64,000 nucleotides of DNA from Candidatus Moraniibacteriota bacterium (GTDB lineage Bacteria > Patescibacteriota > Minisyncoccia > Moranbacterales > UBA9337), in assembly GCA_026985555.1 (NCBI GenBank), contig JALSQF010000010.1:97163-161162 (forward strand), read 5' to 3'. Both the position numbers and the translations under genes were made by a program. The notes below the pieces were generated by a model. That model was given only the letters and a program-made list of their open reading frames with translations. It was not told where the DNA came from and made no database searches. This document shows, piece by piece, positions 2,272 to 20,575 of this stretch (the first letter of the stretch is position 1; every line of letters starts with the position of its first letter).

Positions 2272-2351
2272 AAACTATATAATTTTAACTATTGACAGCT
2301 TAAATAAAAAGCATTTAGTATAAATTTATAATAAACTATTATATTCTTTTT

Positions 2352-5812: not shown

Positions 5813-5824
5813 TTAAAGTAAATT

Positions 5825-6420: not shown

Positions 6421-6486
6421 TAGTAAGTTAGCGTAATTATTAAAAATTGTCAAGATTTTCTTACTTAAAAAATTAACTTTAAAATT

Positions 6487-7644
6487 ATGAAAGAGAAAAA
6501 AATTTTATATATTACTCGTCCTCTTTCCCCTCCTTGGGATGAAGCCAGTAAAAATTTTGCTTATAATTTAGCTCAACAAATAGCTTTAAAAAATTCCAAT
6601 TTTGAAATCAACATTTTAACTAAAAAAAAATTAACTAATCTTTCTTCTAATATTAGACAATATTCTATTTATACTTCTTCACAAAACGATTTCAATTGGC
6701 GCCAAAAAAAATATCTTTTTCAATTTTTATTAAAAACGATTCTTCAAAATAAATTTAATCTCTGGCACTCTTTTTTTACTCCAACCAAAATGAACACTTT
6801 TTTATTAAAAACTATTTTCAATCTTTCTTTTAAAAAAAATAAACCTAGAACTATTCAAACCATAGCCACCTTACGAGAAGATCTTTACTCAGAAAAAGAA
6901 TTTAAAAAAATACTTTTTGCTGATTGGCTAATAACTTATTCTCACTATGCCTTAAAACGTTTGAAAAAAATGGGATTTAAAAATGTTACTCAAATTTATC
7001 CCGGTATTGATTTAAAAAAATTTAAATTAACTTCTAAAAATTCTTTTCTTTTAAAAAAATATAATTTTTCTCAAAATGATTTCATCATTAATTTCACAGG
7101 AGAATATGTGCGTTTAAACGCTATAGATGATGTAATAAGTTCTTTTTTAGAAATAAGTCAAAAAATTCCTCAAGCTAAATTATCTCTAGCAGTCAGAGTT
7201 AAAAATTCTCAAGACGCGCAAAAGAAAAAAGAAGTTATTCAATTTCTTCAAAAGAATAATTTATTAAAAAGAGTAGCATTTCACGATGATGGAAATTATA
7301 CTATGTCTGATATTTATAATTTAGCTGATGTTAGTCTTTTCCCTGTTCAAAATATGCAAGGAAAATTTGATATACCCTTAGCAGTTATAGAAGCTATGGC
7401 TTGTGAAAAACCGGTAGTTATTTCTGATATTCCTATTTTACAAGAATTTTCTAATCAAAAAAATTCAGTTCAAATAAAAGCCGGAAATTTTAAACAACTA
7501 TCTAATGCTGTTATAGATCTTTATAAAAATCCAGAAAAAAGATTAAAAATCGGAAAACGAGCTCGGCAATATGTCAAAAATAACTTTAATTTAGAAAATG
7601 CAGAGCAAAAATATTCTCAATTATACCATTCTTTATTAAAATAA
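6487..7644 (+). CDS. glycosyltransferase, GT4/GT1 family
   Basis: The C-terminal IPLAVIEAMACEKPVVISDIPILQEF matches the GT-B donor-binding motif. Confidence 0.65.
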   Translation: MKEKKILYITRPLSPPWDEASKNFAYNLAQQIALKNSNFEINILTKKKLTNLSSNIRQYSIYTSSQNDFNWRQKKYLFQFLLKTILQNKFNLWHSFFTPTKMNTFLLKTIFNLSFKKNKPRTIQTIATLREDLYSEKEFKKILFADWLITYSHYALKRLKKMGFKNVTQIYPGIDLKKFKLTSKNSFLLKKYNFSQNDFIINFTGEYVRLNAIDDVISSFLEISQKIPQAKLSLAVRVKNSQDAQKKKEVIQFLQKNNLLKRVAFHDDGNYTMSDIYNLADVSLFPVQNMQGKFDIPLAVIEAMACEKPVVISDIPILQEFSNQKNSVQIKAGNFKQLSNAVIDLYKNPEKRLKIGKRARQYVKNNFNLENAEQKYSQLYHSLLK

Positions 7645-7764
7645 ACTCAAATTAAAAATAGAAAACTCTTAAGAATTTTTCCTGCGTTTTACCTCGTAAA
7701 CACTTCTATTTGATAAAATTTAACCAATAAATACAAACTAAAAAATAATAGATAAAATTATAAT

Positions 7765-8718
7765 CTATAAAGTTGTAATTGGTCTTGATTGAACAATATA
7801 AAATTTTCCTTTTTCAAGAGCCCACTCAATATCTTGCGGATAGTTGTAGTGTTTTTCTATTCTTTGACAAATTTCAGCAAGTTCCAGAATTTGTTTATCG
7901 GTTAATTTTTGTTTTTCTTGTTTAGCTTTTAAAACTTTAGTGTCCTTAGTTTTACCATTGATTTTTGTTATCATTTTTTCTTGTTTTGAAATATTCTTAT
8001 CTAAAATTTTAAATCCTTTTCTTTTTTTATGCTTGTGAATTATATAAGTATCGGGAGTTATTTTGCCACCAACAATTGCCTCTCCTAAACCATATCCAGC
8101 TTCAATAACCATTTGGTTTCTATTTTCAGTAACAGGATGAACAGTAAAACAAATTCCTGATATTTCAGATTGAATCATTGTTTGAATTACAACAGAAACA
8201 AAAACTTTTTGTTTATGCAAGTTTTTTTCATATCTGTAAAAAATTGCTCTTGGTGTAAACAATGATGACCAACATTTTTTTACTGATTCTAAAAGATTTT
8301 TTTCCGTTACATTTAAATAACTTTCAAGTTCTCCTGCCCAAGATGCAATTGAAGAATCTTCAGCGGTGGCAGAAGAACGAACCGCAACGTATTGAGTGTT
8401 AAGCTTTAAAAACTCATTTTTTATTTTATTTCCGATATCTGTTGGAAAGTTTGCATCATGAATTAAATCCCTAATTTTTTCTGATGTTCTTTCTATCGTT
8501 TCAATGTTTTTATAATCTACTTTACTTAGAGCTGCTTCAATTTCTATTCCTAAATCAGTTTCCTCTAAAAATTTTTCATAAGCTGAAGATAAAACAACAA
8601 ACCCTGGCGGTACAGGAATTTTAGCTCTTGTCATTTCCCCAAGCGAAGCACCCTTACCTCCAGCAATTGCTACATCATGCTTAGTTAAATTTTTAAAAGA
8701 TTTTACAATTTTACTCAT
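7765..8718 (-). CDS. stand-alone ATP-grasp nucleotide-binding domain of the PEP synthase / pyruvate phosphate dikinase family (PPDK_N)
   Basis: The N-terminus MSKIVKSFKNLTKHDVAIAGGKGASLGEMTRAKIPVPPGFVV is the hallmark start of PEP synthase/PPDK/rifampin-phosphotransferase ATP-binding domains. The protein is 317 aa and ends where the His domain would normally begin. Confidence 0.8.
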   Translation of the reverse strand: MSKIVKSFKNLTKHDVAIAGGKGASLGEMTRAKIPVPPGFVVLSSAYEKFLEETDLGIEIEAALSKVDYKNIETIERTSEKIRDLIHDANFPTDIGNKIKNEFLKLNTQYVAVRSSATAEDSSIASWAGELESYLNVTEKNLLESVKKCWSSLFTPRAIFYRYEKNLHKQKVFVSVVIQTMIQSEISGICFTVHPVTENRNQMVIEAGYGLGEAIVGGKITPDTYIIHKHKKRKGFKILDKNISKQEKMITKINGKTKDTKVLKAKQEKQKLTDKQILELAEICQRIEKHYNYPQDIEWALEKGKFYIVQSRPITTL

Positions 8719-8721
8719 AAT

Positions 8722-10245
8722 TTATTTTGTTTTTTTAACTGTTGCTTTTGTAAAATCAATTTCTACAGAATCTCCTGTTTTAAAAATTTTTGTAGCAAGT
8801 CTTGTACCTACAACACAAGGAATTTTAAATTCTCTACTAACTATTGCCGCGTGAGAAGTCATACCTCCCTCATCTGTAATGATCGCTAAAGCTCTTTTCA
8901 TTATAGAAATTAAACCAGGATGAGTTTGAACGGCAACTAATATATCGCCATCCTTAAATTTTTTTAGCTGCCTATCTGCGTCATATGAAGAACTTAATAC
9001 AAATACTTTACCGCTTATATTTTTTTTATCTTTCGGTAAAAAAGTAATAATACCTTTAACTGATTGCTTTTCTTCAATTTCTTTTTTTCTACTATTTAAT
9101 AAATCTTTTATTTCTTGTAACGCCTTTTTGCCGATTAATGTTTTTATGTTATTTTTACTAAATATTCTTAAATAAGCTTTTTGTCTCTCATTTAAAGTTT
9201 TTTTGTTTACTTTTTTACCATGTTTTATAAGTTGTAAAATCTCTTCAAATTCATAAGCATTTATATCTTCACTAGGTATTTGATAATATTTACTTAATGT
9301 TTCTACTATAATTTTAATATAATTCAGTAAACATAAAATGTAAGTATTCATATCAAATCTAAGAACTGATAAACGACCGGCAATATCGGCAAGTTGATAT
9401 TCAGAAATATTTTTATTTTTTTTAAGTATTTGTTTCCTTTTGTTTAAAACATTATCTGTAGATATAACTTTTTTATATTCTTTTTGTAATTTATTAGGAT
9501 CATTTAACAAAGAAATAGTTTTGTTAAATAAATAATCTAAATTTATTACCGCACCACCATAAAATCCCCAATTCAAAAATCCATATTTATCTATTTTGTT
9601 CTTAATTGCCCTAAACTTAGCTTGATTTTTCTTGTTATACTGATCTATTGTGCATTTTGCCTTTTTTATGTCATAAGCATAAAGAATAATATCTTTTTCA
9701 ATTTCAGCAGTAAGCGTTCTACTTTCTCCCATACTAGCGATAAAACTTAATTCGTTTTTGTTAGGAGACTGATTTAATTTTTTTTCTATTAAATTTAATC
9801 TTTGAGGTTGAGTTAGAAAATAATAACCATTTGCAAAAGTGCAAACCCTTTTGATATTCTTCAATAAACTAATTACTTTTGTTTTTTTAGTTAGTATAGC
9901 AACAAATTCTTTGCCATGAATTTCTTGAAAATATTTGTCTGAAATTTGTTTTGTTAAAAGAAATAATTCTTCAGCTTTTTTTTGAAAATTGTCAAAAAAT
10001 ACTTTATCTGAAAAATTTTTTAGACTAGTTTCAGCTTCTTTTTGAAGCGCACTTTTATCATATGCACCAAACCAAAAAGCATTTGGTTTGTTTTGTGTGT
10101 ATAAATACCATTTATCTGGTGCGTATCCTGAAATATTTTCTATTAATTTGTAGACTTTGTCGTTAATCCAGGCGCCTTTTTTATCAAAAAAATAAATAGG
10201 CGTAAATTGTGTTTGGTCATACATTATTTTAGGTAATTTTTTCAT
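8722..10245 (-). CDS. PEP-utilizing-enzyme mobile (phosphohistidine swivel) domain protein with an N-terminal domain of about 400 aa of unknown function
   Basis: The C-terminal region KDGDILVAVQTHPGLISIMKRALAIITDEGGMTSHAAIVSREFKIPCVVGT carries the GGxTSHAAI phosphohistidine motif of PEP-utilizers. The N-terminal ~400 aa show no recognisable motif. The gene stops 3 nt before the ATP-grasp gene (junction TAA-ATT-ATG). Confidence 0.75.
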   Translation of the reverse strand: MKKLPKIMYDQTQFTPIYFFDKKGAWINDKVYKLIENISGYAPDKWYLYTQNKPNAFWFGAYDKSALQKEAETSLKNFSDKVFFDNFQKKAEELFLLTKQISDKYFQEIHGKEFVAILTKKTKVISLLKNIKRVCTFANGYYFLTQPQRLNLIEKKLNQSPNKNELSFIASMGESRTLTAEIEKDIILYAYDIKKAKCTIDQYNKKNQAKFRAIKNKIDKYGFLNWGFYGGAVINLDYLFNKTISLLNDPNKLQKEYKKVISTDNVLNKRKQILKKNKNISEYQLADIAGRLSVLRFDMNTYILCLLNYIKIIVETLSKYYQIPSEDINAYEFEEILQLIKHGKKVNKKTLNERQKAYLRIFSKNNIKTLIGKKALQEIKDLLNSRKKEIEEKQSVKGIITFLPKDKKNISGKVFVLSSSYDADRQLKKFKDGDILVAVQTHPGLISIMKRALAIITDEGGMTSHAAIVSREFKIPCVVGTRLATKIFKTGDSVEIDFTKATVKKTK

Positions 10246-10249
10246 AGTT

Positions 10250-11065
10250 TTATTGTTTTTTAATAATTAATTCTTTTCCTTTAAAAAATAATTTTATTGT
10301 CTGTTTTCCATTTTCATCAGATCTTATTTCTATTTTTGGACCTTCTAATGGCTTAATAAGTCCTCCAATCATCTTTAAATTAACTTCTTCCGGTTGTAAT
10401 TCTGGATGATTCTTGAGATAAATAAGTTTATTAAAATATTCTATAACTCCGCTATGACCAATTAAAACAATTTTTACCCGACTATTTGATTTTAAACGAG
10501 ATGCTAACTTACTAAAATGATCAATTAATTTTTCTATTTCTTGACCAAAATCCTTGCCTTTTAAGTGAGAATCTGGCCATTTTTTATCAAAAAATTGTTC
10601 AATTAAAAGACTATTACCAACTTGTTCAAGATCTATAGTTTCAGGTTCGTAAGCAATTTGCTTTTTTTCCTTTGTAATTTTATCAAGATCATCCTGCGTT
10701 AAAATATTTCTTTTTTTTAATTCTTCAATTAACGCCTTTTTAGCTTGAGGAGAAAATTCAGACCATCTTCCTAATAATTCTTCTTTAGTTCTAATAGATG
10801 ATTTTATTCTTTTTTCTTTTAAAAAATTTTGAATATCTTTCCTTAATTGTTGTGGACGTTTATGTGGACTTAAATAAAATTTTACTAAATCAAAAGAATC
10901 ATCGTATTCATTTTCTAATTTTTCTAAAAATTGTTGCTTTCCTTTGTTGGTAATATTACCTGTTTCATAATCTTTATCAGGATGGCGTATTAATTCTATT
11001 TCCATTGCAACATTAGCTCCATATTCTAATCTTTCTTTTTGTTCAAATCTTTTTAAAAATTCCAT
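10250..11065 (-). CDS. histidine phosphatase superfamily protein (phosphoglycerate-mutase/SixA-like fold)
   Basis: The N-terminal LIRHPDKDYETGNITNKGKQQ fits the RH-x7-G-x-(L/I)T-x2-G-x2-Q pattern. The C-terminal IVLIGHSGVI carries the second catalytic His. A 4-nt gap to the next gene implies co-transcription. Confidence 0.55.
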   Translation of the reverse strand: MEFLKRFEQKERLEYGANVAMEIELIRHPDKDYETGNITNKGKQQFLEKLENEYDDSFDLVKFYLSPHKRPQQLRKDIQNFLKEKRIKSSIRTKEELLGRWSEFSPQAKKALIEELKKRNILTQDDLDKITKEKKQIAYEPETIDLEQVGNSLLIEQFFDKKWPDSHLKGKDFGQEIEKLIDHFSKLASRLKSNSRVKIVLIGHSGVIEYFNKLIYLKNHPELQPEEVNLKMIGGLIKPLEGPKIEIRSDENGKQTIKLFFKGKELIIKKQ

Positions 11066-11113
11066 GTCCTTAGATTAAAGTTTTTCAATATAAAAATATT
11101 GATATCTACCTAT

Positions 11114-11141
11114 ATTGTATTTAATTAAATATAATTGTCAA
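11114..11141 (-). promoter_or_regulatory. sigma70-like promoter for the phosphatase/dikinase operon
   Basis: The minus strand reads TTGACA (11141..11136), a 16-nt spacer, then TACAAT (11119..11114). This places the start site about 40 nt upstream of the ATG at 11065. Confidence 0.5.
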
Positions 11142-11310
11142 TCCTTTAGATAAAATGATTTTTTTGTAAAAACCTCCTAAACTTTCAACTTACTTTTTTC
11201 TGAAAATTGAGCTTAAAAAATTTTATTCTTAAATAATTTTTTGGCTTACTATTTGTTTTTGAGCTTAAAAATGTTTTTTTTAAATTTCTTTATAAAAATA
11301 AAATTTATAA

Positions 11311-11358
11311 AAATAAAAAATGGTCGTCTATCTTTTTAATTAACGACCATTTTTATGT
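11311..11358 (-). terminator. rho-independent terminator after the nrdD C-terminal mini-gene
   Basis: The stem atggtcgt/acgaccat (11316..11327 paired with 11343..11354) is followed by a T-run on the minus strand. It lies 12 nt downstream of the stop at 11370. Confidence 0.6.
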
Positions 11359-11369
11359 TTTTTCTATAT

Positions 11370-11654
11370 TTAGCAAGTTCCTGTAGAACAAGAGGGAGTT
11401 TCTACTACAAAAGTTTGTCTATCTTTCCATTCTTCTGCTTTACCTTTGTTCCAACGTCTTACTGGAGTATGAAAACCAACTACGCGAGAATAAACATCGC
11501 AAGGTTGATAATTTTCTAAAACAGGATTAGCTTTATAACAACTTTTGCATTTTATAGCATCCTCTCCTTCAACAGCGCTAGTATAGCGCACGTATTTTTC
11601 CCCTTTTTTAATTGTCTTACCACAATCATGGCAAACTAATTTTTGTGTTTTCAT
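11370..11654 (-). CDS. stand-alone C-terminal module of anaerobic ribonucleotide reductase: Zn ribbon plus glycyl-radical loop
   Basis: It has CHDCG and CKSC (four-Cys ribbon) followed by YSRVVGFHTPVRRWNKGKAEEWKDR. This compares with E. coli NrdD C-terminus CYECG..CPKCG..RRVCGYLGSP..NAGKQEEVKRR. Confidence 0.8.
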   Translation of the reverse strand: MKTQKLVCHDCGKTIKKGEKYVRYTSAVEGEDAIKCKSCYKANPVLENYQPCDVYSRVVGFHTPVRRWNKGKAEEWKDRQTFVVETPSCSTGTC

Positions 11655-11786
11655 ATTTTATTTTTCAGTTATATAATTCTTATTTGTTTTTTTATTAATT
11701 TTAATTTACTTAAGAATTATACAACTTAATTTTAATTACTTATTACTTATTATATATAAACATCCTAAAAGGATGATAATTTGTTT

Positions 11787-13841
11787 TTAAGCCACTTCAA
11801 ACTTTACTTTTTGTTGAGATAATTCTAGTTTACACTTAGGACAGGTATGATGTTCCCCTTTAATATAACCATGCTTGGGACAAATACTGAATGTGGGTGT
11901 AAAGGTAAAATAAGGTAAAGCATAGTTAGTTGCAATAGTTCTCACTAAATTTTTTACTACTTCTATATCATTTATTTTTTCTCCTAAAAATCCATGCAAG
12001 ACTGTTCCTCCTGTGTATTTTGTCTGCAAGTCATCTTGTAGATCTAGAGCTTCAAAAATATCAGAAGTAAAACCAACAGGCAACTGTGAAGAATTAGTAT
12101 AGTAAGGTTCAGCATTTTCTTCTTTCACTGCTTGATCATTAGCAAAAATAATATCTGGAAAACGTTCTTTGTCTAATTTAGCTAAACGATAAGTAGTTCC
12201 TTCCGCAGGAGTAGCTTCTAAATTATAGAGATGTTCTGTTTCTTTTTGATAAGTTAAAAGTTTCTTTCTCATATGTTTGAGAACACGTTGCGCAAAACGA
12301 TTTCCTTCATAAGTAGTGATATCTTTACCTAACAAATTAAGTAGACCTTCGTTTAAACCTACTAAACCAATGGTAGAAAAATGATTAGCCCAATAGCTAC
12401 CTTGTTTTCTTTTTATATCTCCTAAATAATGTTTAGAATAAGGATAAAGTCCTGTTTCGGTTAGCTTTTCAATAAAAACTCTTTTTAATTCTAAGCTTTC
12501 TTTAGCCACTTCCATTAAATAGTCAACCCTTTGAAGAAACTCTTCTCTATTTTTTGATAAATAACCTATGCGTGGCATATTTAAAGTAACTACGCCAATG
12601 GAACCAGTCATAGGATTAGCGCCAAATAATCCTCCTCCTCGCTTCCTTAATTCTCTATTATCTAAACGTAAACGACAACACATACTACGCGCATCATCAG
12701 GACTCATATCAGAATTAACAAAATTAGCAAAATAAGGCATTCCATATTTAGCTGTCATTTCCCAAATAGGATTTAAAGCAGGATCGTCCCAATTAAAATC
12801 TTTGGTAATGTTATAGGTGGGAATAGGAAAAGTGAAAACTCTTTTTTGTGCATCTCCTTCTGACATAACTTCTGCAAAAGCCTTATTAATCATATTCATT
12901 TCCTTTTGATATTCACTATAAGTATGAGGCTGGGGCATTCCTCCTATAATAACAGCTTCGTCTTTTAAAGTAGAGGGAACTTGTAAATCTAAAGTAATAT
13001 TAGAAAATGGCGTTTGGAAACCTACTCTAGTAGGAACATTCATATTAAATACAAATTCTTGAAGAGCTTGTTTTACTTCTTTATATTTTAATTTATCAAA
13101 ATGAACAAAAGGAGCTAGTAAAGTATCAAAATTAGAAAAAGCTTGTGCTCCATTAGCTTCTCCTTGAAGAGTATATATAAAATTTACCATTTGTCCTAAA
13201 GCACTTCGGAAATGTTTAGGAGGAGCAGAATGAACCTTGCCTGGAACGCCGCCAAATCCTTTCAAAAGTAAATCTTTAAGATCCCAACCGCAACAATAAG
13301 CAGCTACCATTTGTAAATCATGCACATGGAGATCTCCTTCTTCGTGCGCTTTTCTAATACGTTCTGTGTAAACTCTATTCATCCAATATTTAGCGCTAAC
13401 AATAGAAGAAATAAAATTATTTAATCCTTGTAAACTATATCCCATATTAGAATTTTCTTTTGTTCTCCAATCCGCTTCCCCAATATATTTATCAACTAAA
13501 TCAATAGCATCTTTTAAAGCATCTTCTGTTTCTCTTACTTTACGATGTTGATCACGATAAAGAATATACGCTTTAGCTGTTTCTTCAAAATCTAAAACCA
13601 TTAAAACACGTTCTACTATGTCTTGAATCTCTTCTATTTCTGGTATATAACCTTGACGATGATTTTTGTTAAGTAATTGAATTACTTTACGAGTTACTTT
13701 AATAGCTTCTTTTTCTCCTCCTTCTTTAGTTTCTTGAAGTGCTTTTTGAACCGCTTTAATAATTTTTTCTTTTTTAAAAGCGACTATTCTTCCACTTCTT
13801 TTGATAACTTTTTTTACTTTGTTTTTTATTGGTCTTGGCAT
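11787..13841 (-). CDS. nrdD: anaerobic ribonucleoside-triphosphate reductase catalytic subunit, ending after its Zn ribbon and lacking the glycyl-radical loop
   Basis: It has an N-terminal ATP-cone, a class III RNR core and C-terminal PTFSICPKHGYIKGEHHTCPKCK. The ORF stops 15 aa after CPKC without any RVxGY motif. Confidence 0.85.
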   Translation of the reverse strand: MPRPIKNKVKKVIKRSGRIVAFKKEKIIKAVQKALQETKEGGEKEAIKVTRKVIQLLNKNHRQGYIPEIEEIQDIVERVLMVLDFEETAKAYILYRDQHRKVRETEDALKDAIDLVDKYIGEADWRTKENSNMGYSLQGLNNFISSIVSAKYWMNRVYTERIRKAHEEGDLHVHDLQMVAAYCCGWDLKDLLLKGFGGVPGKVHSAPPKHFRSALGQMVNFIYTLQGEANGAQAFSNFDTLLAPFVHFDKLKYKEVKQALQEFVFNMNVPTRVGFQTPFSNITLDLQVPSTLKDEAVIIGGMPQPHTYSEYQKEMNMINKAFAEVMSEGDAQKRVFTFPIPTYNITKDFNWDDPALNPIWEMTAKYGMPYFANFVNSDMSPDDARSMCCRLRLDNRELRKRGGGLFGANPMTGSIGVVTLNMPRIGYLSKNREEFLQRVDYLMEVAKESLELKRVFIEKLTETGLYPYSKHYLGDIKRKQGSYWANHFSTIGLVGLNEGLLNLLGKDITTYEGNRFAQRVLKHMRKKLLTYQKETEHLYNLEATPAEGTTYRLAKLDKERFPDIIFANDQAVKEENAEPYYTNSSQLPVGFTSDIFEALDLQDDLQTKYTGGTVLHGFLGEKINDIEVVKNLVRTIATNYALPYFTFTPTFSICPKHGYIKGEHHTCPKCKLELSQQKVKFEVA

Positions 13842-13915
13842 ATTTTTGTTTTCCCCTTCTTAATTTTATTATTATTTATTTTTTATTTAATTAAAATCAT
13901 GAAATAAATTATTTT

Positions 13916-14380
13916 TTATCCATTTTTCTTTTCCATCTTTTCAAGTTCTTTACGAAAAGCTTTTATGCTACCAAAGGATTTATAAACACTGGCAAAACGA
14001 ACATAAGCAACTTCATCAATTTGACGTAATTTTTTTAAAATAATCCTTCCTATTTCTCTGGTTGATAATTCTGTTTTTCCTAAAGAACAAATTTCATATT
14101 CAATTTCTCTTAATAATTTTTCTCGTTTTTCTGCATTAACGGGTCGTTTTTCTAGGGCTCTAGCTATTCCTTTTTTAATTTTTTCCTTTTGAAACTCTTC
14201 TCTGCTTCCATCTTTTTTGATAACTGTTAGTTTCATAATTTCTGGTTCCTCATAAGTGCTAAATCTTTTTTGACATTTTTCACATTCTCTTCTGCGACGA
14301 ATAGCTTTACCATCATTAGTATCTCTTGAATCAATTACTTTTGTTTCTAAATGACCGCAATAGGGACAAATCATAAACAA
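13916..14380 (-). CDS. nrdR: transcriptional repressor NrdR
   Basis: MICPYCGHLETKVIDSRDTNDGKAIRRRRECEKCQKRF is the NrdR Zn ribbon, followed by an ATP-cone. The likely true start is the third codon (MICPYCG, at 14374). Confidence 0.85.
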   Translation of the reverse strand: MFMICPYCGHLETKVIDSRDTNDGKAIRRRRECEKCQKRFSTYEEPEIMKLTVIKKDGSREEFQKEKIKKGIARALEKRPVNAEKREKLLREIEYEICSLGKTELSTREIGRIILKKLRQIDEVAYVRFASVYKSFGSIKAFRKELEKMEKKNG

Positions 14381-14413
14381 ATATTTTAATAGTTAAGTTA
14401 CTTTTCTACTATA

Positions 14414-14460
14414 TATTGTATAATACAATAGTATTCTATCACAATAAAAAAACCTGTCAA
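14414..14460 (-). promoter_or_regulatory. nrdR promoter with an overlapping 17-bp palindromic operator
   Basis: The minus strand reads TTGACA (14460..14455), a 16-nt spacer, then TAGAAT (14438..14433). The perfect palindrome TATTGTATAATACAATA (14414..14430) begins 3 nt downstream of the -10 element. Confidence 0.5.
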
Positions 14461-14503
14461 TACCCTTACGCTAACGCTTATTTACTAGCTATTTCTGTTT
14501 TTT

Positions 14504-14545
14504 AAAAAATAGGTTTACTTAAATAAAAAGTAAACCTATTTTTTG
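14504..14545. terminator. bidirectional rho-independent terminator between the tRNA pair and nrdR
   Basis: A 12-13 bp stem (aataggtttactt paired with agtaaacctatt) with loop aaataaaa is flanked by A-runs and T-runs on both sides. Confidence 0.6.
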
Positions 14546-14548
14546 ATG

Positions 14549-14621
14549 TGGACCGGACAGGACTTGAACCCGCCACCTCCTCGGTGCAAACGAGGTGCTC
14601 TACCAGATGAGCTACCGGCCC
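14549..14621 (-). tRNA. tRNA-Ala (anticodon TGC)
   Basis: The minus strand reads gggccggtagctcatctggtagagcacctcgtttgcaccgaggaggtggcgggttcaagtcctgtccggtcca. It has a G3:U70 pair, an anticodon loop tttgcac, a T-loop ggttcaagtcc and discriminator A. CCA is not encoded. Confidence 0.9.
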
Positions 14622-14644
14622 GTTTAATTAAAATTTTCTATCTA

Positions 14645-14718
14645 GTGGGCATACCAGGATTTGAACCTGGGACCTCAACATTATCAGTGTTGCGCTCTAA
14701 CCAACTGAGCTATATGCC
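14645..14718 (-). tRNA. tRNA-Ile (anticodon GAT)
   Basis: The minus strand reads gggcatatagctcagttggttagagcgcaacactgataatgttgaggtcccaggttcaaatcctggtatgccca. It has an anticodon loop ctgataa and a T-loop ggttcaaatcc. Confidence 0.9.
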
Positions 14719-14778
14719 CTCATTTAAAAACATTAAAAATACTTACTCAGATAATATATAATAAATAAAAAATATTGT

Positions 14779-16851
14779 CTAGTCTTTTAATAAAAATTTT
14801 ACATCTACTGCTACAGCTTTTTGATTGTTGTTATAAATTAACAAGGGGTTAATATCCATTTGTTCTATTTCCTCTTCTAGTTCTAAAGCTAATATAGAAA
14901 AATTTTCTATTATTTGGGCTAATTCATTTATGTCATACGGTTTTCTTCCCCTGGTCTTTTTAAACAGAAATTTTAAACTTCCTGTTTTTAGTTTTTTCTT
15001 AATAAATTGTTTACTCACTGGAGAAATAAAAAATTCTACTTGTTTTAAAATTTCCGTGTAAATACCTCCTAATCCTACTATCACTATGTTACCAAAACTG
15101 GCATCTCTCTTTATTCCTAAAATAATTTCTTCTTGAATTTTTCTTTGATGCTGAATAATAATTTTTTCTTGAGGAAATTTATTTTTTAATTTATTAAAAG
15201 TTCTTTTTAATTCCAGAAAATTATTAACATTAAGGATTACTCCTTTTTTATCAGTTTTATGTAAAATATAAGGACTGTCAACCTTAACAACGACTGGAAA
15301 TTTTTTAACCGCTTCTATGTTTTCATAGAAATTAGCTACCTTTATACCATAACTATTTAAGATGCGTTTTCCTTCTTCATAATAAAGCGCTTTACGTTTC
15401 TCTCTTTTTGCGTTGCCTAAAATTATTTTATTTTTTTCTTGTCTATAATAATTGATTAATTTTTCTCTTTCACTTATATTATTTCTAGATTTTCTTTTTG
15501 TGTAATAATCAACTATTTTTACCGCTATATCAGGATAAGTAAAATTAAGTATTTTTTCTTTATGAAATAATTTACGCGCTTCAATTAATTTTTCCTTTCC
15601 TATAAATATAGGTATTATTGGTACTTCATATTCTTTGTTGAAGTCAATTATTAATTGGGCAATTTCTAAAACAGGAGTTTGATCTTGAGGAGTAAGTACG
15701 GCCAAAATAGCTCCCGGTTTCTCTTTAATTAAAATTTCTAAAGATTGTTTATAACGCTCCGTAGATGCATCACCCAGTAAATCAATAGGGTTTTCTAGAG
15801 ATGATTCTTGGGGTAAAAATTTTTTTAATTTAAGTTTGGTTTCTGAGGAAATTTCCGCTAATTCTATATGTTTTCCTAAAAAAGCATCAGCTGTTAAAAC
15901 ACCTGGCCCTCCTGCATTAGTAACAATTATTATTTTATTATCATTGATTTTGTTTTTTAAATTTACAGCGCTTAAAATTTTTATAAATTCTTCTATTGTT
16001 TTTGCTCTCCAAATACCTTCTTGTTGAAAAGCTGCATTTACAATATCATCACTTCCTGCCAAAGCTCCTGTATGTAAAGAAATGGCTTTTTGTGCTTTCT
16101 CGCTACGTCCGCTTTTTAAAATAACTATGGGTTTGTTTTTTATAATTTTTTGCGCTAAATTCAAAAAACTTTTTCCTTTCTTAATTCCTTCTAGATAAAA
16201 AGCAATTATTTCAGTGTCCTCATCTTTATTTAAATATTCTAATAAATTGATTTCATTTAGTTGCAATTTATTGCCGATGGAAATAATTTTAGAAAAACCT
16301 AAATTTTCTGATTGAGCCATATCCATAATGGCTACCATTAAAGCTCCTGATTGCGATATTAAAGCAATTTTTCCTTCGGGAGGCATTCCTCCCGCAAAAG
16401 ATGCATTTAATTTTATTTTTGGATTAACAAATCCTAAACAATTAGGTCCTAGAATGTTTAAATTATTTTTTTGAATTATTTTTTTTAGTTGTTTAGCACG
16501 TTCCTTTCCCTCAGAGCCAATTTCTGAAAATCCAGCCGAAATTATAATAAAGTTCTTAACTTTTTTTCTTGCAGATTTAATTACTTCTACTACAAACCTA
16601 GCTGGAATTACAATAATAGCTAAATCTATTTCATCTTCAATATCTTCTAATTTTTTGAAACACTTTTTTTCTAATATTTTTTCATGTTTAGGATTAACTA
16701 AAAAAACTTTTTTTTTATAGCCTAAATCTAAAAGATTTTTAGTTATCACATATCCTATTTTTCCTTCTTTTTCACTAGCTCCCACTATCGCTACTGATTG
16801 AGGATTAAAAAAATTTTTTAAAGACATATTTGATTTATTATCACAAAACAA
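14779..16851 (-). CDS. acetate--CoA ligase (ADP-forming) / acyl-CoA synthetase, fused CoA-binding and ATP-grasp domains
   Basis: NPQSVAIVGASEKEGKIGYVITKNL is a succinyl-CoA-synthetase-like CoA-binding motif, and the C-terminal half is ATP-grasp-like. The track start is a TTG. The ATG at 16827 (MSLKNFF...) is the likelier start. Confidence 0.7.
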   Translation of the reverse strand: MFCDNKSNMSLKNFFNPQSVAIVGASEKEGKIGYVITKNLLDLGYKKKVFLVNPKHEKILEKKCFKKLEDIEDEIDLAIIVIPARFVVEVIKSARKKVKNFIIISAGFSEIGSEGKERAKQLKKIIQKNNLNILGPNCLGFVNPKIKLNASFAGGMPPEGKIALISQSGALMVAIMDMAQSENLGFSKIISIGNKLQLNEINLLEYLNKDEDTEIIAFYLEGIKKGKSFLNLAQKIIKNKPIVILKSGRSEKAQKAISLHTGALAGSDDIVNAAFQQEGIWRAKTIEEFIKILSAVNLKNKINDNKIIIVTNAGGPGVLTADAFLGKHIELAEISSETKLKLKKFLPQESSLENPIDLLGDASTERYKQSLEILIKEKPGAILAVLTPQDQTPVLEIAQLIIDFNKEYEVPIIPIFIGKEKLIEARKLFHKEKILNFTYPDIAVKIVDYYTKRKSRNNISEREKLINYYRQEKNKIILGNAKREKRKALYYEEGKRILNSYGIKVANFYENIEAVKKFPVVVKVDSPYILHKTDKKGVILNVNNFLELKRTFNKLKNKFPQEKIIIQHQRKIQEEIILGIKRDASFGNIVIVGLGGIYTEILKQVEFFISPVSKQFIKKKLKTGSLKFLFKKTRGRKPYDINELAQIIENFSILALELEEEIEQMDINPLLIYNNNQKAVAVDVKFLLKD

Positions 16852-17155
16852 AAATAATTTTTGACTTGTGATATTTTTTATTTTTGTTTAAAATTTAATA
16901 TTGAAATTTTTTAAGTCTAGGATATATATTTTTTACATCTTTTATTCTAACAAAAAATAATAAACTTATCAATTGATTTATAAAATAAATATTTTGTAAG
17001 CATTTCTGCTAAACTTTTAACCTAATTTTCTTTAAATTAATTTTTTAGAAATTCTAAAATTAACCTAAGAATTTTCTTTCCTAAATATTTTTTAGTCTGT
17101 TATTTATTTTTTAAAAGTATTTCTATTATGTTTTTTTATTCATTAAAAAATTAAA

Positions 17156-17641
17156 CTATCCTTTATCTTTTAATCTATAACTAGCTATTCCTAAGGCTAC
17201 TGCCACATTTAAGCTTTTCTTTTTTCCATACATAGGTATTTCTATAATATTATCACATTTTTTTAATATACGCTTATCTATTCCTCGCGGTTCATTACCA
17301 ACAATAAGAGTTACTTTATTTTTTAAAGAAATTTTTCTGTAGTCTATAGATTTTTTATCTTGTTCTAAAGCTATAATTTGAAAATTTTCTTTTTTTAATT
17401 TTTGAATTAATAAAGAAACATTTTGATATTTTTCCCATTCTACATATTTATCAGCTTGTAAGGCTGTTTTAGCCAACATTTTTTCTGCTTTGGTTTGCAA
17501 TACATAAGGCTTTAAAGATGGAGTAGGAGTAAATCCAGTTAAATAAATTTTATCTATTCCCACCCCATCAGCCGTTCTAAACATAGAACCAACATTATAA
17601 GCGCTTCTAATACGATGTAAAATTAAATAAAATTTTTGCAT
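17156..17641 (-). CDS. SpoU/TrmH-family RNA 2'-O-methyltransferase
   Basis: The size (161 aa) and the C-terminal IEIPMYGKKKSLNVAVALGIASY fit the SPOUT knot motif III. Confidence 0.65.
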   Translation of the reverse strand: MQKFYLILHRIRSAYNVGSMFRTADGVGIDKIYLTGFTPTPSLKPYVLQTKAEKMLAKTALQADKYVEWEKYQNVSLLIQKLKKENFQIIALEQDKKSIDYRKISLKNKVTLIVGNEPRGIDKRILKKCDNIIEIPMYGKKKSLNVAVALGIASYRLKDKG

Positions 17642-17740
17642 AAAGTTATTAGGTTGTAAAAATCAAAATTTTATTTTGATTTTTACAAAAATAATTAATC
17701 TTGTGAAAATAAAGGATTATAAAATATTAATTTATATACA

Positions 17741-18514
17741 TTATATGTTATTTCTAAAAACATTAGTTATTACTTCCTGAACATCATCGTTAGCTTCTAA
17801 TTCTTCTATAAAATTTACTAGCTGATTATAATCTTCTTCTTTTAAATTAACTGTTTGCTGCGGTAAAAAGGTTAGCTTTGTTTCTGTAATTTTTACTCCT
17901 TTTTTTTCCAAGGCTTCTTTTACCTTTGGCAAATCAGCAGTTTTAGTAACTATTATCAATTTATCTTTTTTATCGTTTTTTATTTCTTCTGCGCCATAGT
18001 CAATGGCTAGCAATTCTATTTCTTCAGATTCTTTTTCTTGCTCTTTTAAATTAATTAGTAAGTATCCTTTTAGTGTAAATATAAAACGTAAAGATCCTTT
18101 GGCTAATAATTTAGCCTTGTTTTTTTCCAAATAATGTCGTATTTCACTCACTGTTCTGTTGCGATTATCTGTAGCTGTTTTGATTAAAAGAGCTACTTGT
18201 TGACCATTTAAATTATAATAAGCCTCATAAATTATTTCTTCAATTTTTTCTCCATCATTTAATTCTCCGGTTCCTTTTTTTATCGCTCGTTCAATATTTT
18301 CTTTGGGCATATTAAAAGAACGCGCTTTTTCTACTGCCATTTTTAATTTAAAGTTAGTTTCTATGTCTCCTCCCCCTTCTCTAGCGCTTACCGAAATTAA
18401 ACGTCCTAACTTAGTAAAAATATTAGCTCTTTTAGCATCTTGTAGGGCTTTTTTATGACGAATAGTGCTCCATTTAGAATGTCCTGACATAATTTTATCT
18501 TTAGTTTTTGACAT
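17741..18514 (-). CDS. yebC: YebC/PmpR-family transcriptional regulator
   Basis: MSGHSKWSTIRHKKALQDAKRANIFTKLGR is the hallmark YebC N-terminus. The true start is probably the internal M, 8 codons in. Confidence 0.85.
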   Translation of the reverse strand: MSKTKDKIMSGHSKWSTIRHKKALQDAKRANIFTKLGRLISVSAREGGGDIETNFKLKMAVEKARSFNMPKENIERAIKKGTGELNDGEKIEEIIYEAYYNLNGQQVALLIKTATDNRNRTVSEIRHYLEKNKAKLLAKGSLRFIFTLKGYLLINLKEQEKESEEIELLAIDYGAEEIKNDKKDKLIIVTKTADLPKVKEALEKKGVKITETKLTFLPQQTVNLKEEDYNQLVNFIEELEANDDVQEVITNVFRNNI

Positions 18515-18570
18515 TTACATTATATATCATTTAATAATGAATATCAAAAATATGTTTATTGGTTATTTTT

Positions 18571-20205
18571 TTAATTCCTTAAAAAGTATAACAAATTAAT
18601 TAAAAATTCATTCCAATAATTAATAGTTTTTATTTGAGGATTAAAATAAAACTGAGAATTTCTTTTTTCTATGAAATTATTGTTTGTTTTGTTTTGTGTA
18701 ATTAATTTGATTGAATTTTTTAAAATTTTTGAATTATTTAATTCTAAAAAATTATAATTATCATAATTACTAGGAGTTTTTATTTCTATTTTATTTTGAA
18801 TTAATTTTTTCTTTTGATTTTCTTTTGCTCTTAAACTTTCTTTTTGAAGAGTTAAACTATGCTTATTTAATGTTTTCTCTCTATCATTTTTTTGGTTGGA
18901 TAAAGAAGTATTTGTAAAAAAAGTATTTTGATAATTGTTTACAATACTTTTATTCTTTTTATTCTTTGAAGTTTCTAATAAAGTTTTCTTTTCTTTTTTC
19001 TTTTTTATCTTCCATTTCCAAGCACTTCCTTTTCTTTTAAAATAAATAGCATCATCGGGAATATTCTTTTTTCCGTTCTTATATTTATAGCGAATCTTGT
19101 AAGCTAATCCTCCGTCTGGATAACGCAATTCAATAGTAGTTTTTTTATTAGCTAAAATAAAATGAGAATATTTTCCTGTTAAATGCTTACTCTGATGAGA
19201 AGCTACTTTAAATTTTTTAAAAATAGGATGATTAATTAAGTGATTACTTTTAGAGCCAGTAGCTATACTCCAACCTTTGAGATTCAAATTTTTTTTAGAT
19301 TTATTATAAATAACGAGATATTCTTTATTTTTATCTTTTCCAGAAGGATTAGGCACAATTTTAATAATTTTTATCTTATAATGAGGAAATTTTTTAACTT
19401 TGAGATGAAAAAATTTTTTTATAATATGGCTTCCGTCAAAAATAGTTAATTTAACCTTATATTTTCCTTGAGATTCATATTTATGTGAGGTATTCAATTT
19501 ATAACTTCTGTGTCCATCTCCAAAATCCCAAATTATTTTCTTAATTCTTTTTTGAGAAAAAGGTTTGATTTTCAGTTTAAAAAAGGTGTAAATATTTAAA
19601 TAAGCCTCTTTAGGAATTGTAAACTTTAAATTTAAAGTAGAATCCTTTTTGTTTTTTTTGTTTTTTGTAGCATATTGGCTCCATTGCCAACCATTAGAAA
19701 AATAATTAAAAGAAACGTTTTCTAGCCATCTCTGAAAAGATGATTCCACACCATAATTAATTGTAGAAACTAACTTTTTTTGAGGATTAAGTAATTCTAT
19801 TTTAATTTCTCCAGAATTATAAAGATTAAACCTACCACAAATATATTTATCAAATTTTTGAGAAACAAACTCTTTCCTATTTGCGCAATGAGTATCCTTT
19901 CTTTTTAAAATTAAAAATTTTTGAGGTAAAATAATATATTTATCGCTTTCTTTAATGGTGCTTACCTTCAGTAAGGATCTTTTCTTTCCTTTATAAAAAT
20001 AATAACGAGTATATTTAATAATCCAATTGCTTAGATTTATTTTCTTGTGAGATGAATTATAAATTTCTATAAATTCATTTTCACTCTCTTTTCCAGAAGG
20101 ATTAGCTAGTATTTCATTAAATCTAACAGGATAATTTTTTTGCGCTTGTGCTTTCTGAAAAAAACTAAAAACACTTATTATTAGTAAAAAAATTTTTATT
20201 TTCAT
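18571..20205 (-). CDS. secreted surface protein with two lamin-tail (LTD) domains flanking a PKD-like domain and a Lys-rich tail
   Basis: It has the signal peptide MKIKIFLLIISVFSFFQKAQA. The LTD signatures are ILANPSGKESENEFIEIYN...NLSNWII and IVPNPSGKDKNKEYLVIYN...NLKGWSI. The PKD-like signature is DFGDGHRS. Confidence 0.6.
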   Translation of the reverse strand: MKIKIFLLIISVFSFFQKAQAQKNYPVRFNEILANPSGKESENEFIEIYNSSHKKINLSNWIIKYTRYYFYKGKKRSLLKVSTIKESDKYIILPQKFLILKRKDTHCANRKEFVSQKFDKYICGRFNLYNSGEIKIELLNPQKKLVSTINYGVESSFQRWLENVSFNYFSNGWQWSQYATKNKKNKKDSTLNLKFTIPKEAYLNIYTFFKLKIKPFSQKRIKKIIWDFGDGHRSYKLNTSHKYESQGKYKVKLTIFDGSHIIKKFFHLKVKKFPHYKIKIIKIVPNPSGKDKNKEYLVIYNKSKKNLNLKGWSIATGSKSNHLINHPIFKKFKVASHQSKHLTGKYSHFILANKKTTIELRYPDGGLAYKIRYKYKNGKKNIPDDAIYFKRKGSAWKWKIKKKKEKKTLLETSKNKKNKSIVNNYQNTFFTNTSLSNQKNDREKTLNKHSLTLQKESLRAKENQKKKLIQNKIEIKTPSNYDNYNFLELNNSKILKNSIKLITQNKTNNNFIEKRNSQFYFNPQIKTINYWNEFLINLLYFLRN

Positions 20206-20211
20206 AAAAAA

Positions 20212-20499: not shown

Positions 20500-20575
20500 A
20501 TAATTAGTATTTCTATATAATTAATTATACATTGATTAAGAAAAGCGGAGAAATTTCCCCGCTTAGTAAAAATAT

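What the first reader, a model, noticed from the sequence alone, without database searches (positions are those of the whole stretch)
11370..13841. nrdD truncated after its Zn ribbon; the glycyl-radical loop is encoded by a separate 94-codon gene with its own Zn ribbon
The 684-aa NrdD ends ...PTFSICPKHGYIKGEHHTCPKCKLELSQQKVKFEVA*, which is a degenerate ribbon (C..H / C..C), and it has no RVxGY glycyl-radical motif. A separate ORF 133 nt downstream encodes CHDCG..CKSC followed by YSRVVGFHTPVRRWNKGKAEEWKDR. That is a complete ribbon plus the radical-bearing Gly loop, homologous to the extreme C-terminus of intact NrdD. The partially duplicated Zn ribbon argues against a simple frameshift or an intron. 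The 133-nt spacer is AT-rich, unstructured and has no ORF. Either the radical domain works in trans, as a spare part analogous to GrcA/YfiD for pyruvate formate-lyase, or the gene is decaying. nrdR sits immediately upstream, and a terminator follows the mini-gene, so all three genes form one unit.
Basis: partly seen in the sequence, partly recalled or inferred. Interest (0 to 1): 0.65.

Follow-up and report, generated by a model that had tools for sequence, protein, structure and literature searches.

The report
Two-piece anaerobic ribonucleotide reductase, detachable radical domain
This candidate-phylum bacterium encodes its oxygen-sensitive DNA-precursor enzyme in two pieces: a catalytic body that stops at the radical-bearing glycine, and a conserved 94-residue protein carrying that glycine, which probably works as a replaceable part, something known so far only for pyruvate formate-lyase.

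Summary
nrdD (11787..13841, minus strand) has an ATP-cone, an intact barrel and a zinc site but no glycyl-radical loop. A 94-codon gene 132 nt downstream (11370..11654) has its own C-x2-C...C-x2-C ribbon plus the loop (Gly60).

It is not an assembly error or decay:
- The same pair occurs in 34 species-level genomes, mostly labelled Moranbacteria or Parcubacteria.
- dN/dS against the closest relative is 0.05 (nrdD) and 0.15 (mini-gene).
- Truncated NrdDs end 12-15 residues after the ribbon. The radical glycine is residue 14 in intact relatives, so they resemble the large fragment left by oxygen cleavage.
- Ten related genomes keep an intact NrdD plus the mini-gene. nrdG usually follows directly.
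- Similar small genes, mostly without nrdD or nrdG within 6 kb, occur on dozens of viral contigs.

Best reading: the mini-protein supplies the glycyl radical in trans, like GrcA/YfiD for pyruvate formate-lyase, and is obligatory here.

Nothing is shown biochemically, and nrdG is absent from this window. A 2026 review says no spare part is known outside formate-lyases.

The parts
13916..14380 (-). nrdR, a transcriptional repressor (Zn ribbon plus ATP-cone); first gene of the unit
   Evidence: ORF. PF22811 plus PF03477, and TIGR00244 at E=1.4e-55. dN/dS is 0.08 against the closest relative.
14407..14460 (-). Promoter-like site (TTGACA-16-TAGAAT, 14460..14433) followed by an NrdR-box-like palindrome TACAATATATAGTA (14420..14407)
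   Evidence: 11 of 12 promoter match with TG. Sequence read. The NrdR-box resemblance comes from recalled consensus and was not tested statistically.
11787..13841 (-). nrdD, the class III RNR catalytic subunit of 684 aa: ATP-cone, barrel, double-cysteine finger loop SMCCRLR (C388/C389) and YCCGW (C183/C184). It lacks the glycyl-radical loop.
   Evidence: Motifs are conserved in 58 homologues. dN/dS is 0.046 against the 93%-identical relative.
11832..11882 (-). The Zn site of NrdD itself: C654-P-K-H657 ... C667-P-K-C670
   Evidence: These residues are invariant in the alignment of truncated and intact homologues.
11790..11831 (-). 14-residue tail KLELSQQKVKFEVA. It is the remnant of the strand that leads into the radical glycine in intact NrdDs; the stop codon falls at about the glycine position.
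   Evidence: The radical Gly is the 14th residue after CPKC in intact relatives. 69 of 71 truncated homologues end 12-15 residues after CPKC. Transitional forms are VVEQKTETYSKVI*, VIEIAQVKFEKV* and CEVYSEIVS*.
11761..11775 (-). Hairpin 1 (CAUCCU-UUU-AGGAUG) followed by GUUUAUAUAUAA, directly after the nrdD stop codon
   Evidence: It is present in 18 loci, and all 4 scored pairs show compensatory changes (alignment A3).
11667..11726 (-). Hairpin 2: a 16-bp stem with a 28-nt loop, ending 12 nt before the mini-gene start codon
   Evidence: z=-4.1; 0 of 200 shuffles fold as well. Long inverted repeats of different sequence sit at the same place in L230 and many relatives.
11370..11654 (-). Mini-gene of 94 aa: a stand-alone NrdD-type glycyl-radical domain
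   Evidence: The exact protein is found in at least 4 independent assemblies. dN/dS is 0.15 against the closest relative; the median is 0.12 across 25 genomes.
11538..11633 (-). Zn ribbon of the mini-protein (C8-H-D-C11 ... C36-K-S-C39)
   Evidence: Nearly invariant columns. AlphaFold pLDDT is 70-83 here. Only weak, non-significant Foldseek matches (best E=0.18) to ribosomal Zn-ribbon proteins.
11403..11501 (-). Glycyl-radical loop and following tail, C52-DVYSRVVG60FHTPVRRWNKGKAEEWKDRQTF; the G60 codon is at 11475..11477
   Evidence: Invariant columns C52, Y55, S56, R57, V58, V59, G60, P64, W68, N69, K72, E75, R79. Matches NrdD model C-termini.
11305..11354 (-). Intrinsic-terminator-like 13-bp stem plus U-run, ending the unit
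   Evidence: MFE -18.1 kcal/mol, z=-5.8.

Best explanation
The window encodes a two-polypeptide class III ribonucleotide reductase.

- **Catalytic subunit.** The 684-aa NrdD keeps everything needed for catalysis and allostery: ATP-cone, barrel, MCCR finger loop and its own Zn site. It ends at the position of the radical glycine.
- **Radical subunit.** The 94-aa protein is an autonomous glycyl-radical domain, made of a Zn ribbon, the Gly60 loop and a tail.
- **Proposed steps (inferred).** An NrdG activase puts the radical on Gly60. The loop then inserts into the NrdD barrel next to Cys388/389 and serves as the radical store. If oxygen destroys the radical, only the 94-residue piece needs replacing.

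Comparative data suggest the arrangement came from a spare-part system. Relatives have an intact NrdD, the mini-gene and nrdG together. NrdD lost its own loop several times, fixing it in a form like the large oxygen-cleavage fragment.

- **Shown here:** gene structure, conservation, selection, phylogenetic distribution and synteny with nrdG in relatives.
- **Inferred:** radical installation on the mini-protein, complex formation, and activity.
For: 1. **The split is real and widespread.**
   - The identical protein pair is found in several independent assemblies.
   - A truncated NrdD plus a ribbon-bearing mini-gene occurs in 34 of 64 species-representative loci, most of them labelled Moranbacteria or Parcubacteria.
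   - 71 of the 120 nearest NrdD clusters are truncated in the same way.
2. **Both genes are under purifying selection.**
   - Across the window and its 24 closest relatives (73-81% NrdD identity), the mini-gene has pS 0.75 against pN 0.26 in the ribbon and 0.13 in the loop. Their NrdD barrels have pN/pS 0.14.
   - Against the 93%-identical relative, dN/dS is 0.046 for nrdD and 0.154 for the mini-gene.
   - Catalytic motifs are invariant or nearly invariant across 58 homologues.
3. **The truncation sits at the radical glycine.** The tail is homologous to the pre-glycine strand, and graded intermediates exist.
4. **Ten relatives keep an intact NrdD plus the mini-gene.** The loop of each mini-protein tracks the loop of its own NrdD. 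Nucleotide identity ranges from 66% (13-18 synonymous differences) to 100%.
5. **nrdG lies directly downstream of the mini-gene in most relatives**.
6. **A much wider family exists.**
   - A profile search gives 360 representatives at E<=1e-10, and nearly all of the top 150 are 42-159 aa.
   - 68 small ORFs were found on the 80 best IMG/VR contigs. Almost all have no NrdD or NrdG detectable within 6 kb.
   - One of these lies among phage replication and nucleotide-metabolism genes. A 144-aa gene is found in archaeal virus ANMV-1.
7. **Background from the literature.**
   - The NrdD glycyl-radical domain is a Zn site plus loop plus tail, and it is mobile (PMC11226230).
   - Oxygen cleaves NrdD at the radical, as it does PFL (PMC12288474).
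   - YfiD/GrcA rescues oxygen-cleaved PFL (PMC13450708).
Against: - There is no biochemical evidence of any kind.
- No nrdG is found in the 64-kb window or next to the pair in the closest relative. Whether this genome has an activase is unknown; a search for it was inconclusive.
- Alone, the mini-protein's loop is predicted to be disordered.
- The truncated NrdD keeps a copy of the pre-glycine strand that the mini-protein also carries. How both are accommodated is unexplained, although YfiD and PFL show a similar overlap.
- The order of evolutionary events rests on a neighbour-joining tree without support values.
- Whether other RNR classes exist in this genome could not be checked.
Confidence: 0.75

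Rival explanations
1. The mini-protein is only an accessory spare part or regulator. The truncated NrdD would get its initiating radical some other way, or would be inactive, with dNTPs coming from another RNR class or from salvage.
For: - Relatives with an intact NrdD plus the mini-gene show that the mini-protein can be accessory.
- nrdG is absent from the window.
- Bacteria of this candidate-phyla radiation are often thought to scavenge nucleotides (general knowledge, not tested here).
Against: - The truncated NrdD is under strong purifying selection, and its catalytic motifs are invariant or nearly invariant. That is not expected for a dead enzyme.
- No other glycine loop exists in the truncated NrdDs.
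- The mini-gene accompanies all 34 truncated NrdDs found in the species-representative loci.
Confidence: 0.12
2. The mini-protein is a decoy or inhibitor. It would compete with NrdD's own radical domain for NrdG or for the barrel, as a way for phages or cells to down-regulate class III RNR.
For: - Many copies are viral and lack a detectable nrdD or nrdG nearby.
- The mini-protein coexists with intact NrdD in 10 genomes.
Against: - Phage copies sit among dNTP-supply and replication genes such as thymidylate synthase, primase and helicase. That fits boosting dNTP supply, not blocking it.
- The radical glycine and its surrounding motif are invariant.
- In genomes like this one an inhibitor of an already loop-less NrdD would be pointless.
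Confidence: 0.06
3. The split is an artefact or recent decay: an assembly or frameshift error, a pseudogene, or a gene interrupted by an intron, an intein or a recoding signal.
For: - The two ORFs are in the same frame.
- Inteins do occur in NrdDs of related loci.
Against: - There are four in-frame stops in the spacer besides the nrdD stop.
- Spacer length varies from 9 to 276 nt in relatives, in all three phases.
- No Rfam intron or other RNA family matches the spacer.
- No intein domains are found.
- The identical proteins occur in several independent assemblies.
- dN/dS is well below 1 for both genes.
- The mini-protein has an N-terminal ribbon that intact NrdDs lack.
Confidence: 0.02

Closest known systems
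GrcA/YfiD of E. coli and Y06I of phage T4: the autonomous glycyl-radical cofactor ('spare part') of pyruvate formate-lyase
   Same: [quoted passage not shown]
- It coexists with the intact parent enzyme (in 10 relatives here).
- It has virus-encoded homologues.
- The parent enzyme, cut at the radical glycine, retains a strand that the spare part also carries.
   Different: - The mini-protein is homologous to the NrdD C-terminus, not the PFL C-terminus; there is no PF01228 match.
- It carries an N-terminal Zn ribbon instead of a disordered N-terminus.
- It is usually encoded between nrdD and nrdG.
- In this window, and in 34 species-representative loci, the parent enzyme has lost its own radical loop, so the part would be obligatory rather than spare.
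- According to a 2026 review, no spare part is known outside formate-lyases (PMC13450708).
Canonical single-chain class III RNR (NrdD of T4, E. coli, T. maritima, P. copri) with NrdG
   Same: - ATP-cone, barrel, MCCR finger loop and Zn site (the MCCR lineage is described in PMC9669993).
- The mini-protein's loop matches the NrdD consensus.
   Different: - The Gly loop and tail are on a separate polypeptide that has its own, differently spaced ribbon: C-x2-C-x24-C-x2-C, then 12 residues before the conserved Cys (C52) that opens the Gly loop.
- In NrdD of this lineage the pattern is C-x2-H-x9-C-x2-C, then 5 residues before the corresponding Cys.
Split class II RNR NrdJa/NrdJb of Pseudomonas aeruginosa (PMC4520616)
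   Same: A ribonucleotide reductase whose C-terminal functional module is encoded by a separate downstream gene.
   Different: It is a different RNR class. My recollection is that the separate piece there carries the C-terminal cysteine and zinc-finger reduction module, not the radical site; I did not verify this in the paper.

Membership tests
Class III RNR catalytic subunit NrdD (PF13597 / NF006126) | [quoted passage not shown] | tested here: met
   PF03477 at E=5e-22; PF13597 at E=1e-186; NF006126 scores 1054 bits against a cutoff of 548.
Class III RNR catalytic subunit NrdD (PF13597 / NF006126) | Finger-loop cysteine (MGCR or MCCR motif) and the beta-A cysteine | tested here: met
   SMCCRLR is present in all 58 homologues and YCCGW in 49 of 58. 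Motif classes are described in PMC9669993.
Class III RNR catalytic subunit NrdD (PF13597 / NF006126) | C-terminal structural Zn site | tested here: met
   C654, H657, C667 and C670 are invariant in truncated and intact homologues alike. Metal binding itself was not tested.
Class III RNR catalytic subunit NrdD (PF13597 / NF006126) | Glycyl-radical loop (RVxGY/F) on the same polypeptide | tested here: not met
   The 684-aa ORF stops 14 residues after CPKC, about where the Gly lies in intact relatives. The loop is on the 94-aa ORF.
Class III RNR system | A dedicated radical-SAM activase, NrdG | tested here: inconclusive
   nrdG follows the mini-gene in most relatives. It is absent from the 64-kb window (best tblastn E=0.92) and not adjacent in the closest relative. 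The rest of the genome could not be searched.
GrcA/YfiD autonomous glycyl-radical cofactor (PF01228) | Sequence homology to the PFL C-terminal glycyl-radical domain | tested here: not met
   One search shows no PF01228 match; the only significant match is to the NRDD C-terminus. The mini-protein is an analogue, not a member.
GrcA/YfiD autonomous glycyl-radical cofactor (PF01228) | A small stand-alone protein that duplicates the radical domain of a coexisting full-length enzyme | tested here: met
   This is met in 10 related genomes that have an intact NrdD plus the mini-gene. In the window itself the full-length enzyme no longer has its own loop.
GrcA/YfiD autonomous glycyl-radical cofactor (PF01228) | It receives a radical from the activase and restores activity to the oxygen-cleaved enzyme | not testable with these tools
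   This needs anaerobic biochemistry and EPR.
Gene interrupted by an intron, an intein or recoding | An intron RNA, intein domains, or a conserved frame and recoding signal between the two ORFs | tested here: not met
   - No Rfam family matches the spacer.
- No intein domains are found.
- There are four in-frame stops in the spacer besides the nrdD stop.
- Spacer length and phase vary among relatives.

The most novel reading that the evidence does not exclude
A large and so far undescribed family of autonomous NrdD-type glycyl-radical mini-proteins exists in candidate-phyla-radiation bacteria, archaeal viruses and phages. They would act as exchangeable radical cartridges for class III ribonucleotide reductase. 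This would be the first spare-part system for a glycyl-radical enzyme other than formate-lyases. In this Moranbacteria-like lineage NrdD has become permanently dependent on it, having been fixed in the form of its own large oxygen-cleavage fragment. Viruses would carry the cartridge to keep host dNTP synthesis running.
Probability: 0.55. Interest if true: 0.88.

Novelty: new variant of a known kind. Interest (0 to 1): 0.8.

Why it matters
Glycyl-radical enzymes are destroyed irreversibly by oxygen. The only known repair route is the YfiD/GrcA spare part for pyruvate formate-lyase. A June 2026 review states that it is not yet known whether spare parts exist for other glycyl-radical enzymes (PMC13450708).

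This locus and its relatives offer:
- a concrete, testable candidate for class III RNR;
- a natural series running from intact enzyme plus spare part to an obligate two-subunit enzyme;
- a natural mimic of the large oxygen-cleavage fragment of NrdD;
- a widespread viral gene that may be an overlooked auxiliary metabolic gene for dNTP supply under low oxygen.

A detachable radical domain would also be a useful tool for studying how NrdG gains access to the buried glycine.

Tried and rejected
- **Intron or structured-RNA family in the spacer.** Rfam at E<=1 found only two tRNAs nearby.
- **Intein or split intein.** No intein domains were found. The flanks are too short, and both ribbons are conserved as such in relatives.
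- **Read-through or frameshift fusion.** There are four stops in frame in the spacer besides the nrdD stop, and spacer phase varies among relatives.
- **Sequence search of solved structures with the mini-protein profile.** The top matches were spurious C2H2 zinc-finger repeats; the NrdD C-termini scored only E about 0.7.
- **AlphaFold of the mini-protein alone.** The ribbon is moderately confident and the loop disordered. Foldseek gave only weak, non-significant Zn-ribbon matches.
- **AlphaFold of the truncated NrdD alone.** Mean pLDDT was 69. The finger loop, the YCCGW segment (179-184), the ribbon and the tail scored low. I put no weight on this, given the shallow alignment.
- **Looking for nrdG of this genome.** I compared contig lengths among NrdG homologues. 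None of the 120 listed hits had a matching contig length, and 7899 hits passed the threshold, so the result is inconclusive.
- **Simple tandem duplication of the nrdD 3' end as the origin of the mini-gene.** This is unlikely as the sole origin. The mini-protein's ribbon (C-H-D-C-G-K, wide spacing) differs from the C-x2-H ribbon of NrdD and is shared with distant viral and archaeal-virus mini-proteins. Gene conversion of the loop part does occur, however (L027).
Full report
**1. The observation**

The ORF list and the sequence show a 684-aa ORF at 11787..13841 (-) and a 94-aa ORF at 11370..11654 (-).
- The large ORF carries an ATP-cone and matches the NrdD models from their start up to the Zn site: PF13597 positions 1-528 of 562, and NF006126 positions 2-656 of 684 at 1054 bits.
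- The small ORF matches only the last 40-50 positions of the same models (PF13597 510-562; NF006126 642-683).
- nrdR lies directly upstream at 13916..14380.
- A strong hairpin plus U-run follows the small ORF.
- The gap between the ORFs is 132 nt. It is in frame, but has four stop codons in that frame besides the nrdD stop.
- Rfam finds nothing in the gap.

The description is therefore correct.

**2. Not an artefact and not decay**

- The identical 94-aa and 684-aa proteins occur on contigs from several independent assemblies: an ENA contig of 96 kb, a Logan contig of 32 kb, an NCBI contig of 70 kb and a 260-kb contig.
- A scan of one genome per species returned 64 loci, most of them labelled Candidatus Moranbacteria/Moraniibacteriota or Parcubacteria.
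- ORF-level analysis sorted these loci into groups:
  - 34 loci have a truncated NrdD plus a ribbon-bearing mini-gene.
  - 10 loci have an intact NrdD, with its own in-frame CEVYSR(I/V)VGYIRP loop, plus the mini-gene.
  - About 15 loci have an intact NrdD only.
  - 2 loci have simple splits without an extra ribbon (L055, L063).
- Among the 120 nearest NrdD clusters in the large protein collection, 71 are truncated in the same way and 47 are intact.
- Selection was measured across the window and its 24 closest relatives (73-81% NrdD identity). Synonymous sites of the mini-gene are saturated (pS 0.75), while pN is 0.26 in the ribbon and 0.13 in the loop. Their NrdD barrels have pN/pS 0.14.
- Against the closest relative (GCA_026990435.1, NrdD 93% identical), dN/dS is 0.046 for nrdD, 0.154 for the mini-gene and 0.082 for nrdR.
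- The active-site motifs are invariant (SMCCRLR) or nearly invariant (YCCGW, NLEATPAEG, YYTNSS) across 58 homologues.

**3. Where the truncation lies**

- In intact NrdDs of this group the radical glycine is the 14th residue after the CPKC knuckle.
- The truncated proteins end 12-15 residues after CPKC (69 of 71).
- Their conserved tail, x-V-K-F-E-K-V-x, aligns without gaps to the E-V-Y-S-R-V-V strand that leads into the glycine.
- Graded intermediates exist: VVEQKTETYSKVI*, VIEIAQVKFEKV*, and in L048 CEVYSEIVS*.
- The catalytic subunit is therefore cut at about the radical glycine. That is where oxygen cleaves an activated glycyl-radical enzyme (PMC12288474; PMC13450708).

**4. The mini-protein**

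- It has four nearly invariant ribbon cysteines (C8, C11, C36, C39), a conserved linker (NP-x-LENYQ), and an invariant C52-x2-YSRVVG60 ... P64 ... W68-N69 ... K72 ... E75 ... R79.
- That is a complete glycyl-radical domain in the sense used for P. copri NrdD: Zn site, buried Gly loop and tail (PMC11226230).
- Its ribbon spacing is different from NrdD's, and its linker to the loop is longer.
- AlphaFold gives a moderately confident ribbon (pLDDT 70-83) and a disordered loop. That would fit a loop that folds only inside a barrel, but it proves nothing.
- In the genomes that keep an intact NrdD, the loop of each mini-protein tracks the loop of its own NrdD at the variable positions.
- The DNA of those paired loops ranges from 100% identical (L027, 108 nt, pointing to gene conversion) to 66-69% identical, with 13-18 synonymous differences and only a few amino-acid changes in the conserved loop core. 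Both copies are therefore maintained.

**5. Genomic context**

- In most relatives a 232-aa radical-SAM activase (CNFRCPFCHNPELV; NrdG) directly follows the mini-gene, giving nrdD-mini-nrdG.
- In this window there is no nrdG anywhere (best tblastn E=0.92).
- The closest relative also has nrdR-nrdD-mini followed by unrelated genes.
- A search for the missing activase by matching contig lengths was inconclusive. This is the main caveat for this particular genome.

**6. Evolutionary pattern**

- On a neighbour-joining tree of the barrels (no support values), the mini-gene is spread over the whole clade formed by these Moranbacteria-type NrdDs.
- Truncated NrdDs form at least three or four separate groups.
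- Genomes with an intact NrdD plus the mini-gene include the sister of the window's group (L026).
- Genomes with an intact NrdD only are nested inside the clade.
- The simplest reading is an ancestral state of intact NrdD plus mini-gene, followed by repeated loss of NrdD's own loop and occasional loss or relocation of the mini-gene.

**7. A much wider family**

- A profile search of 1.84 billion representative proteins gave 3992 hits at E<=1e-3 and 360 at E<=1e-10. Nearly all of the top 150 are proteins of 42-159 aa, and those inspected (P0027-P0080) share the layout C-x-D-C ... K-C-x2-C ... CEVYSRVVGY(I/L)RP-x2-WN-x-GK.
- In IMG/VR, 311 loci encode relatives. Of the 80 best, 68 are small ORFs, 38 of them with a ribbon. 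Almost all have no NrdD barrel or NrdG detectable by tblastn within 6 kb.
- One such locus (L073) sits among genes for primase, helicase, endolysin, thymidylate synthase and a DNA methyltransferase.
- The archaeal virus ANMV-1 has a 144-aa copy annotated simply as anaerobic ribonucleoside triphosphate reductase.
- In metagenome contigs, 38 ribbon-bearing mini-genes have no nrdD or nrdG detected on the fetched flanks, which range from under 1 kb to 6 kb. Eight lie beside a detectable nrdD, seven of them in a full nrdD-mini-nrdG arrangement.
- No Pfam, NCBIfam or PHROG family is dedicated to these proteins. They hit only the NrdD C-terminus, far below the curated cutoffs, or PHROGs of unknown function.

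**8. Mechanism proposed**

- NrdG would install the radical on Gly60 of the free or docked mini-protein. The mini-protein's own Zn ribbon would replace the Zn site that normally precedes the loop and is thought to stabilise the radical domain (PMC9669993).
- The loop would then insert into the barrel of the truncated NrdD and exchange the radical with the finger-loop cysteine.
- After oxygen damage, only the small protein would have to be resynthesised and reactivated.
- All of these steps are inferred.
- The parallel with YfiD/GrcA is close. It includes phage-borne copies (Y06I) and a retained strand in the cleaved parent enzyme that the spare part also carries.
- By sequence, however, the mini-protein belongs to the NrdD C-terminus and not to the GrcA family.

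**9. Regulation hints**

The spacer is not unstructured.
- A 6-bp hairpin directly after the nrdD stop recurs in 18 loci, with compensatory changes in all four scored pairs and conserved flanks.
- A second, long inverted repeat lies just upstream of the mini-gene start (z=-4.1). It recurs with a different sequence in relatives.
- This suggests partial termination after nrdD, or separate control of the mini-gene. That would suit a consumable subunit, but it is untested.

**10. Novelty and verdict**

- Literature searches found no description of a split NrdD radical domain or an NrdD spare part.
- A June 2026 review states that formate-lyases are the only glycyl-radical enzymes with known spare parts.
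- The known split class II RNR NrdJa/NrdJb (PMC4520616) is a different class.
- I rate this as a new variant of a known kind. I have high confidence that the gene pair is functional, and good but unproven confidence in the trans-radical mechanism.

Noticed in passing
window 11761..11775 and 11667..11726 (-); alignment A3; loci L001-L025, L230: Two hairpins lie in the nrdD-to-mini spacer. Hairpin 1 recurs in 18 loci with compensatory changes and conserved flanks (CAAT(T/C)AA ... GTTTAAAATA). Hairpin 2 is a long inverted repeat just before the mini-gene start and differs in sequence between relatives. They could be a terminator or attenuator, or an operator; their function is unknown.
   Followed up: partly
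window 1..64000; L230: nrdG directly follows the mini-gene in most relatives. It is absent from the whole window and is not adjacent in the closest relative either. It has been relocated or lost in this sub-lineage.
   Followed up: partly
window 11370..11390 (-) (C-terminus ...PSCSTGTC); loci L001-L033; intact NrdDs in L026, L050, L054: Most mini-proteins, and some intact NrdDs of this lineage, end in a cysteine pair (CASC, CAC, GCC, CESC, CAKC). This resembles the C-terminal redox-shuttle cysteines of class I and II RNRs. It may relate to thioredoxin-type reduction in MCCR-type class III enzymes.
   Followed up: no
L066-L145 (IMG/VR); L065 (ANMV-1 virus KP703175, 3854..4288); L146-L191: Dozens of viral and unassigned metagenome contigs carry a stand-alone NrdD-type glycyl-radical mini-gene, with or without a ribbon. 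Most have no nrdD or nrdG detected on the flanks that were fetched. L073 is clearly phage-like. This may be an unrecognised auxiliary metabolic gene.
   Followed up: partly
L055 (3084..3227), L063 (5980..6114), L222, L224; proteins P0024, P0025: Independent, ribbon-less splits of NrdD between the Zn site and the Gly loop give downstream ORFs of 44-68 aa. One has a 4-nt ATGA overlap. They occur in other lineages (Shapirobacteria and others).
   Followed up: no
L027, the nrdD 3' end and the mini-gene: A 108-nt stretch encoding the Gly loop and tail is 100% identical between nrdD and the downstream mini-gene. This points to recent gene conversion.
   Followed up: partly
L045, L053, L103-L105, L111, L130, L186, L223; protein P0184: Several related NrdD genes are 1000-1900 codons long, with the barrel interrupted. 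P0184 carries intein/LAGLIDADG domains (PF14890, PF14528). These look like intein insertions in nrdD.
   Followed up: no
window 14407..14460 (-): There is a strong sigma-70-like promoter upstream of nrdR. Immediately downstream of its -10 element lies a palindrome, TACAATATATAGTA, that resembles an NrdR box. This suggests autoregulation of the nrdR-nrdD-mini unit.
   Followed up: no
window 14549..14621 and 14646..14719 (-): Two tRNA genes lie directly upstream of the nrdR promoter region (Rfam, 61 and 79 bits).
   Followed up: no
window 8722..10245 (-) and the next gene downstream (L228 13597..16077): A 507-aa protein with a PEP-utilizers mobile domain is followed by a separate 317-aa PPDK_N protein. 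This is an unusual split, and apparently permuted, arrangement of a pyruvate phosphate dikinase or PEP synthase-like enzyme. The 271-aa ORF at 10250..11065 has no NCBIfam match and no precomputed Pfam hit.
   Followed up: no
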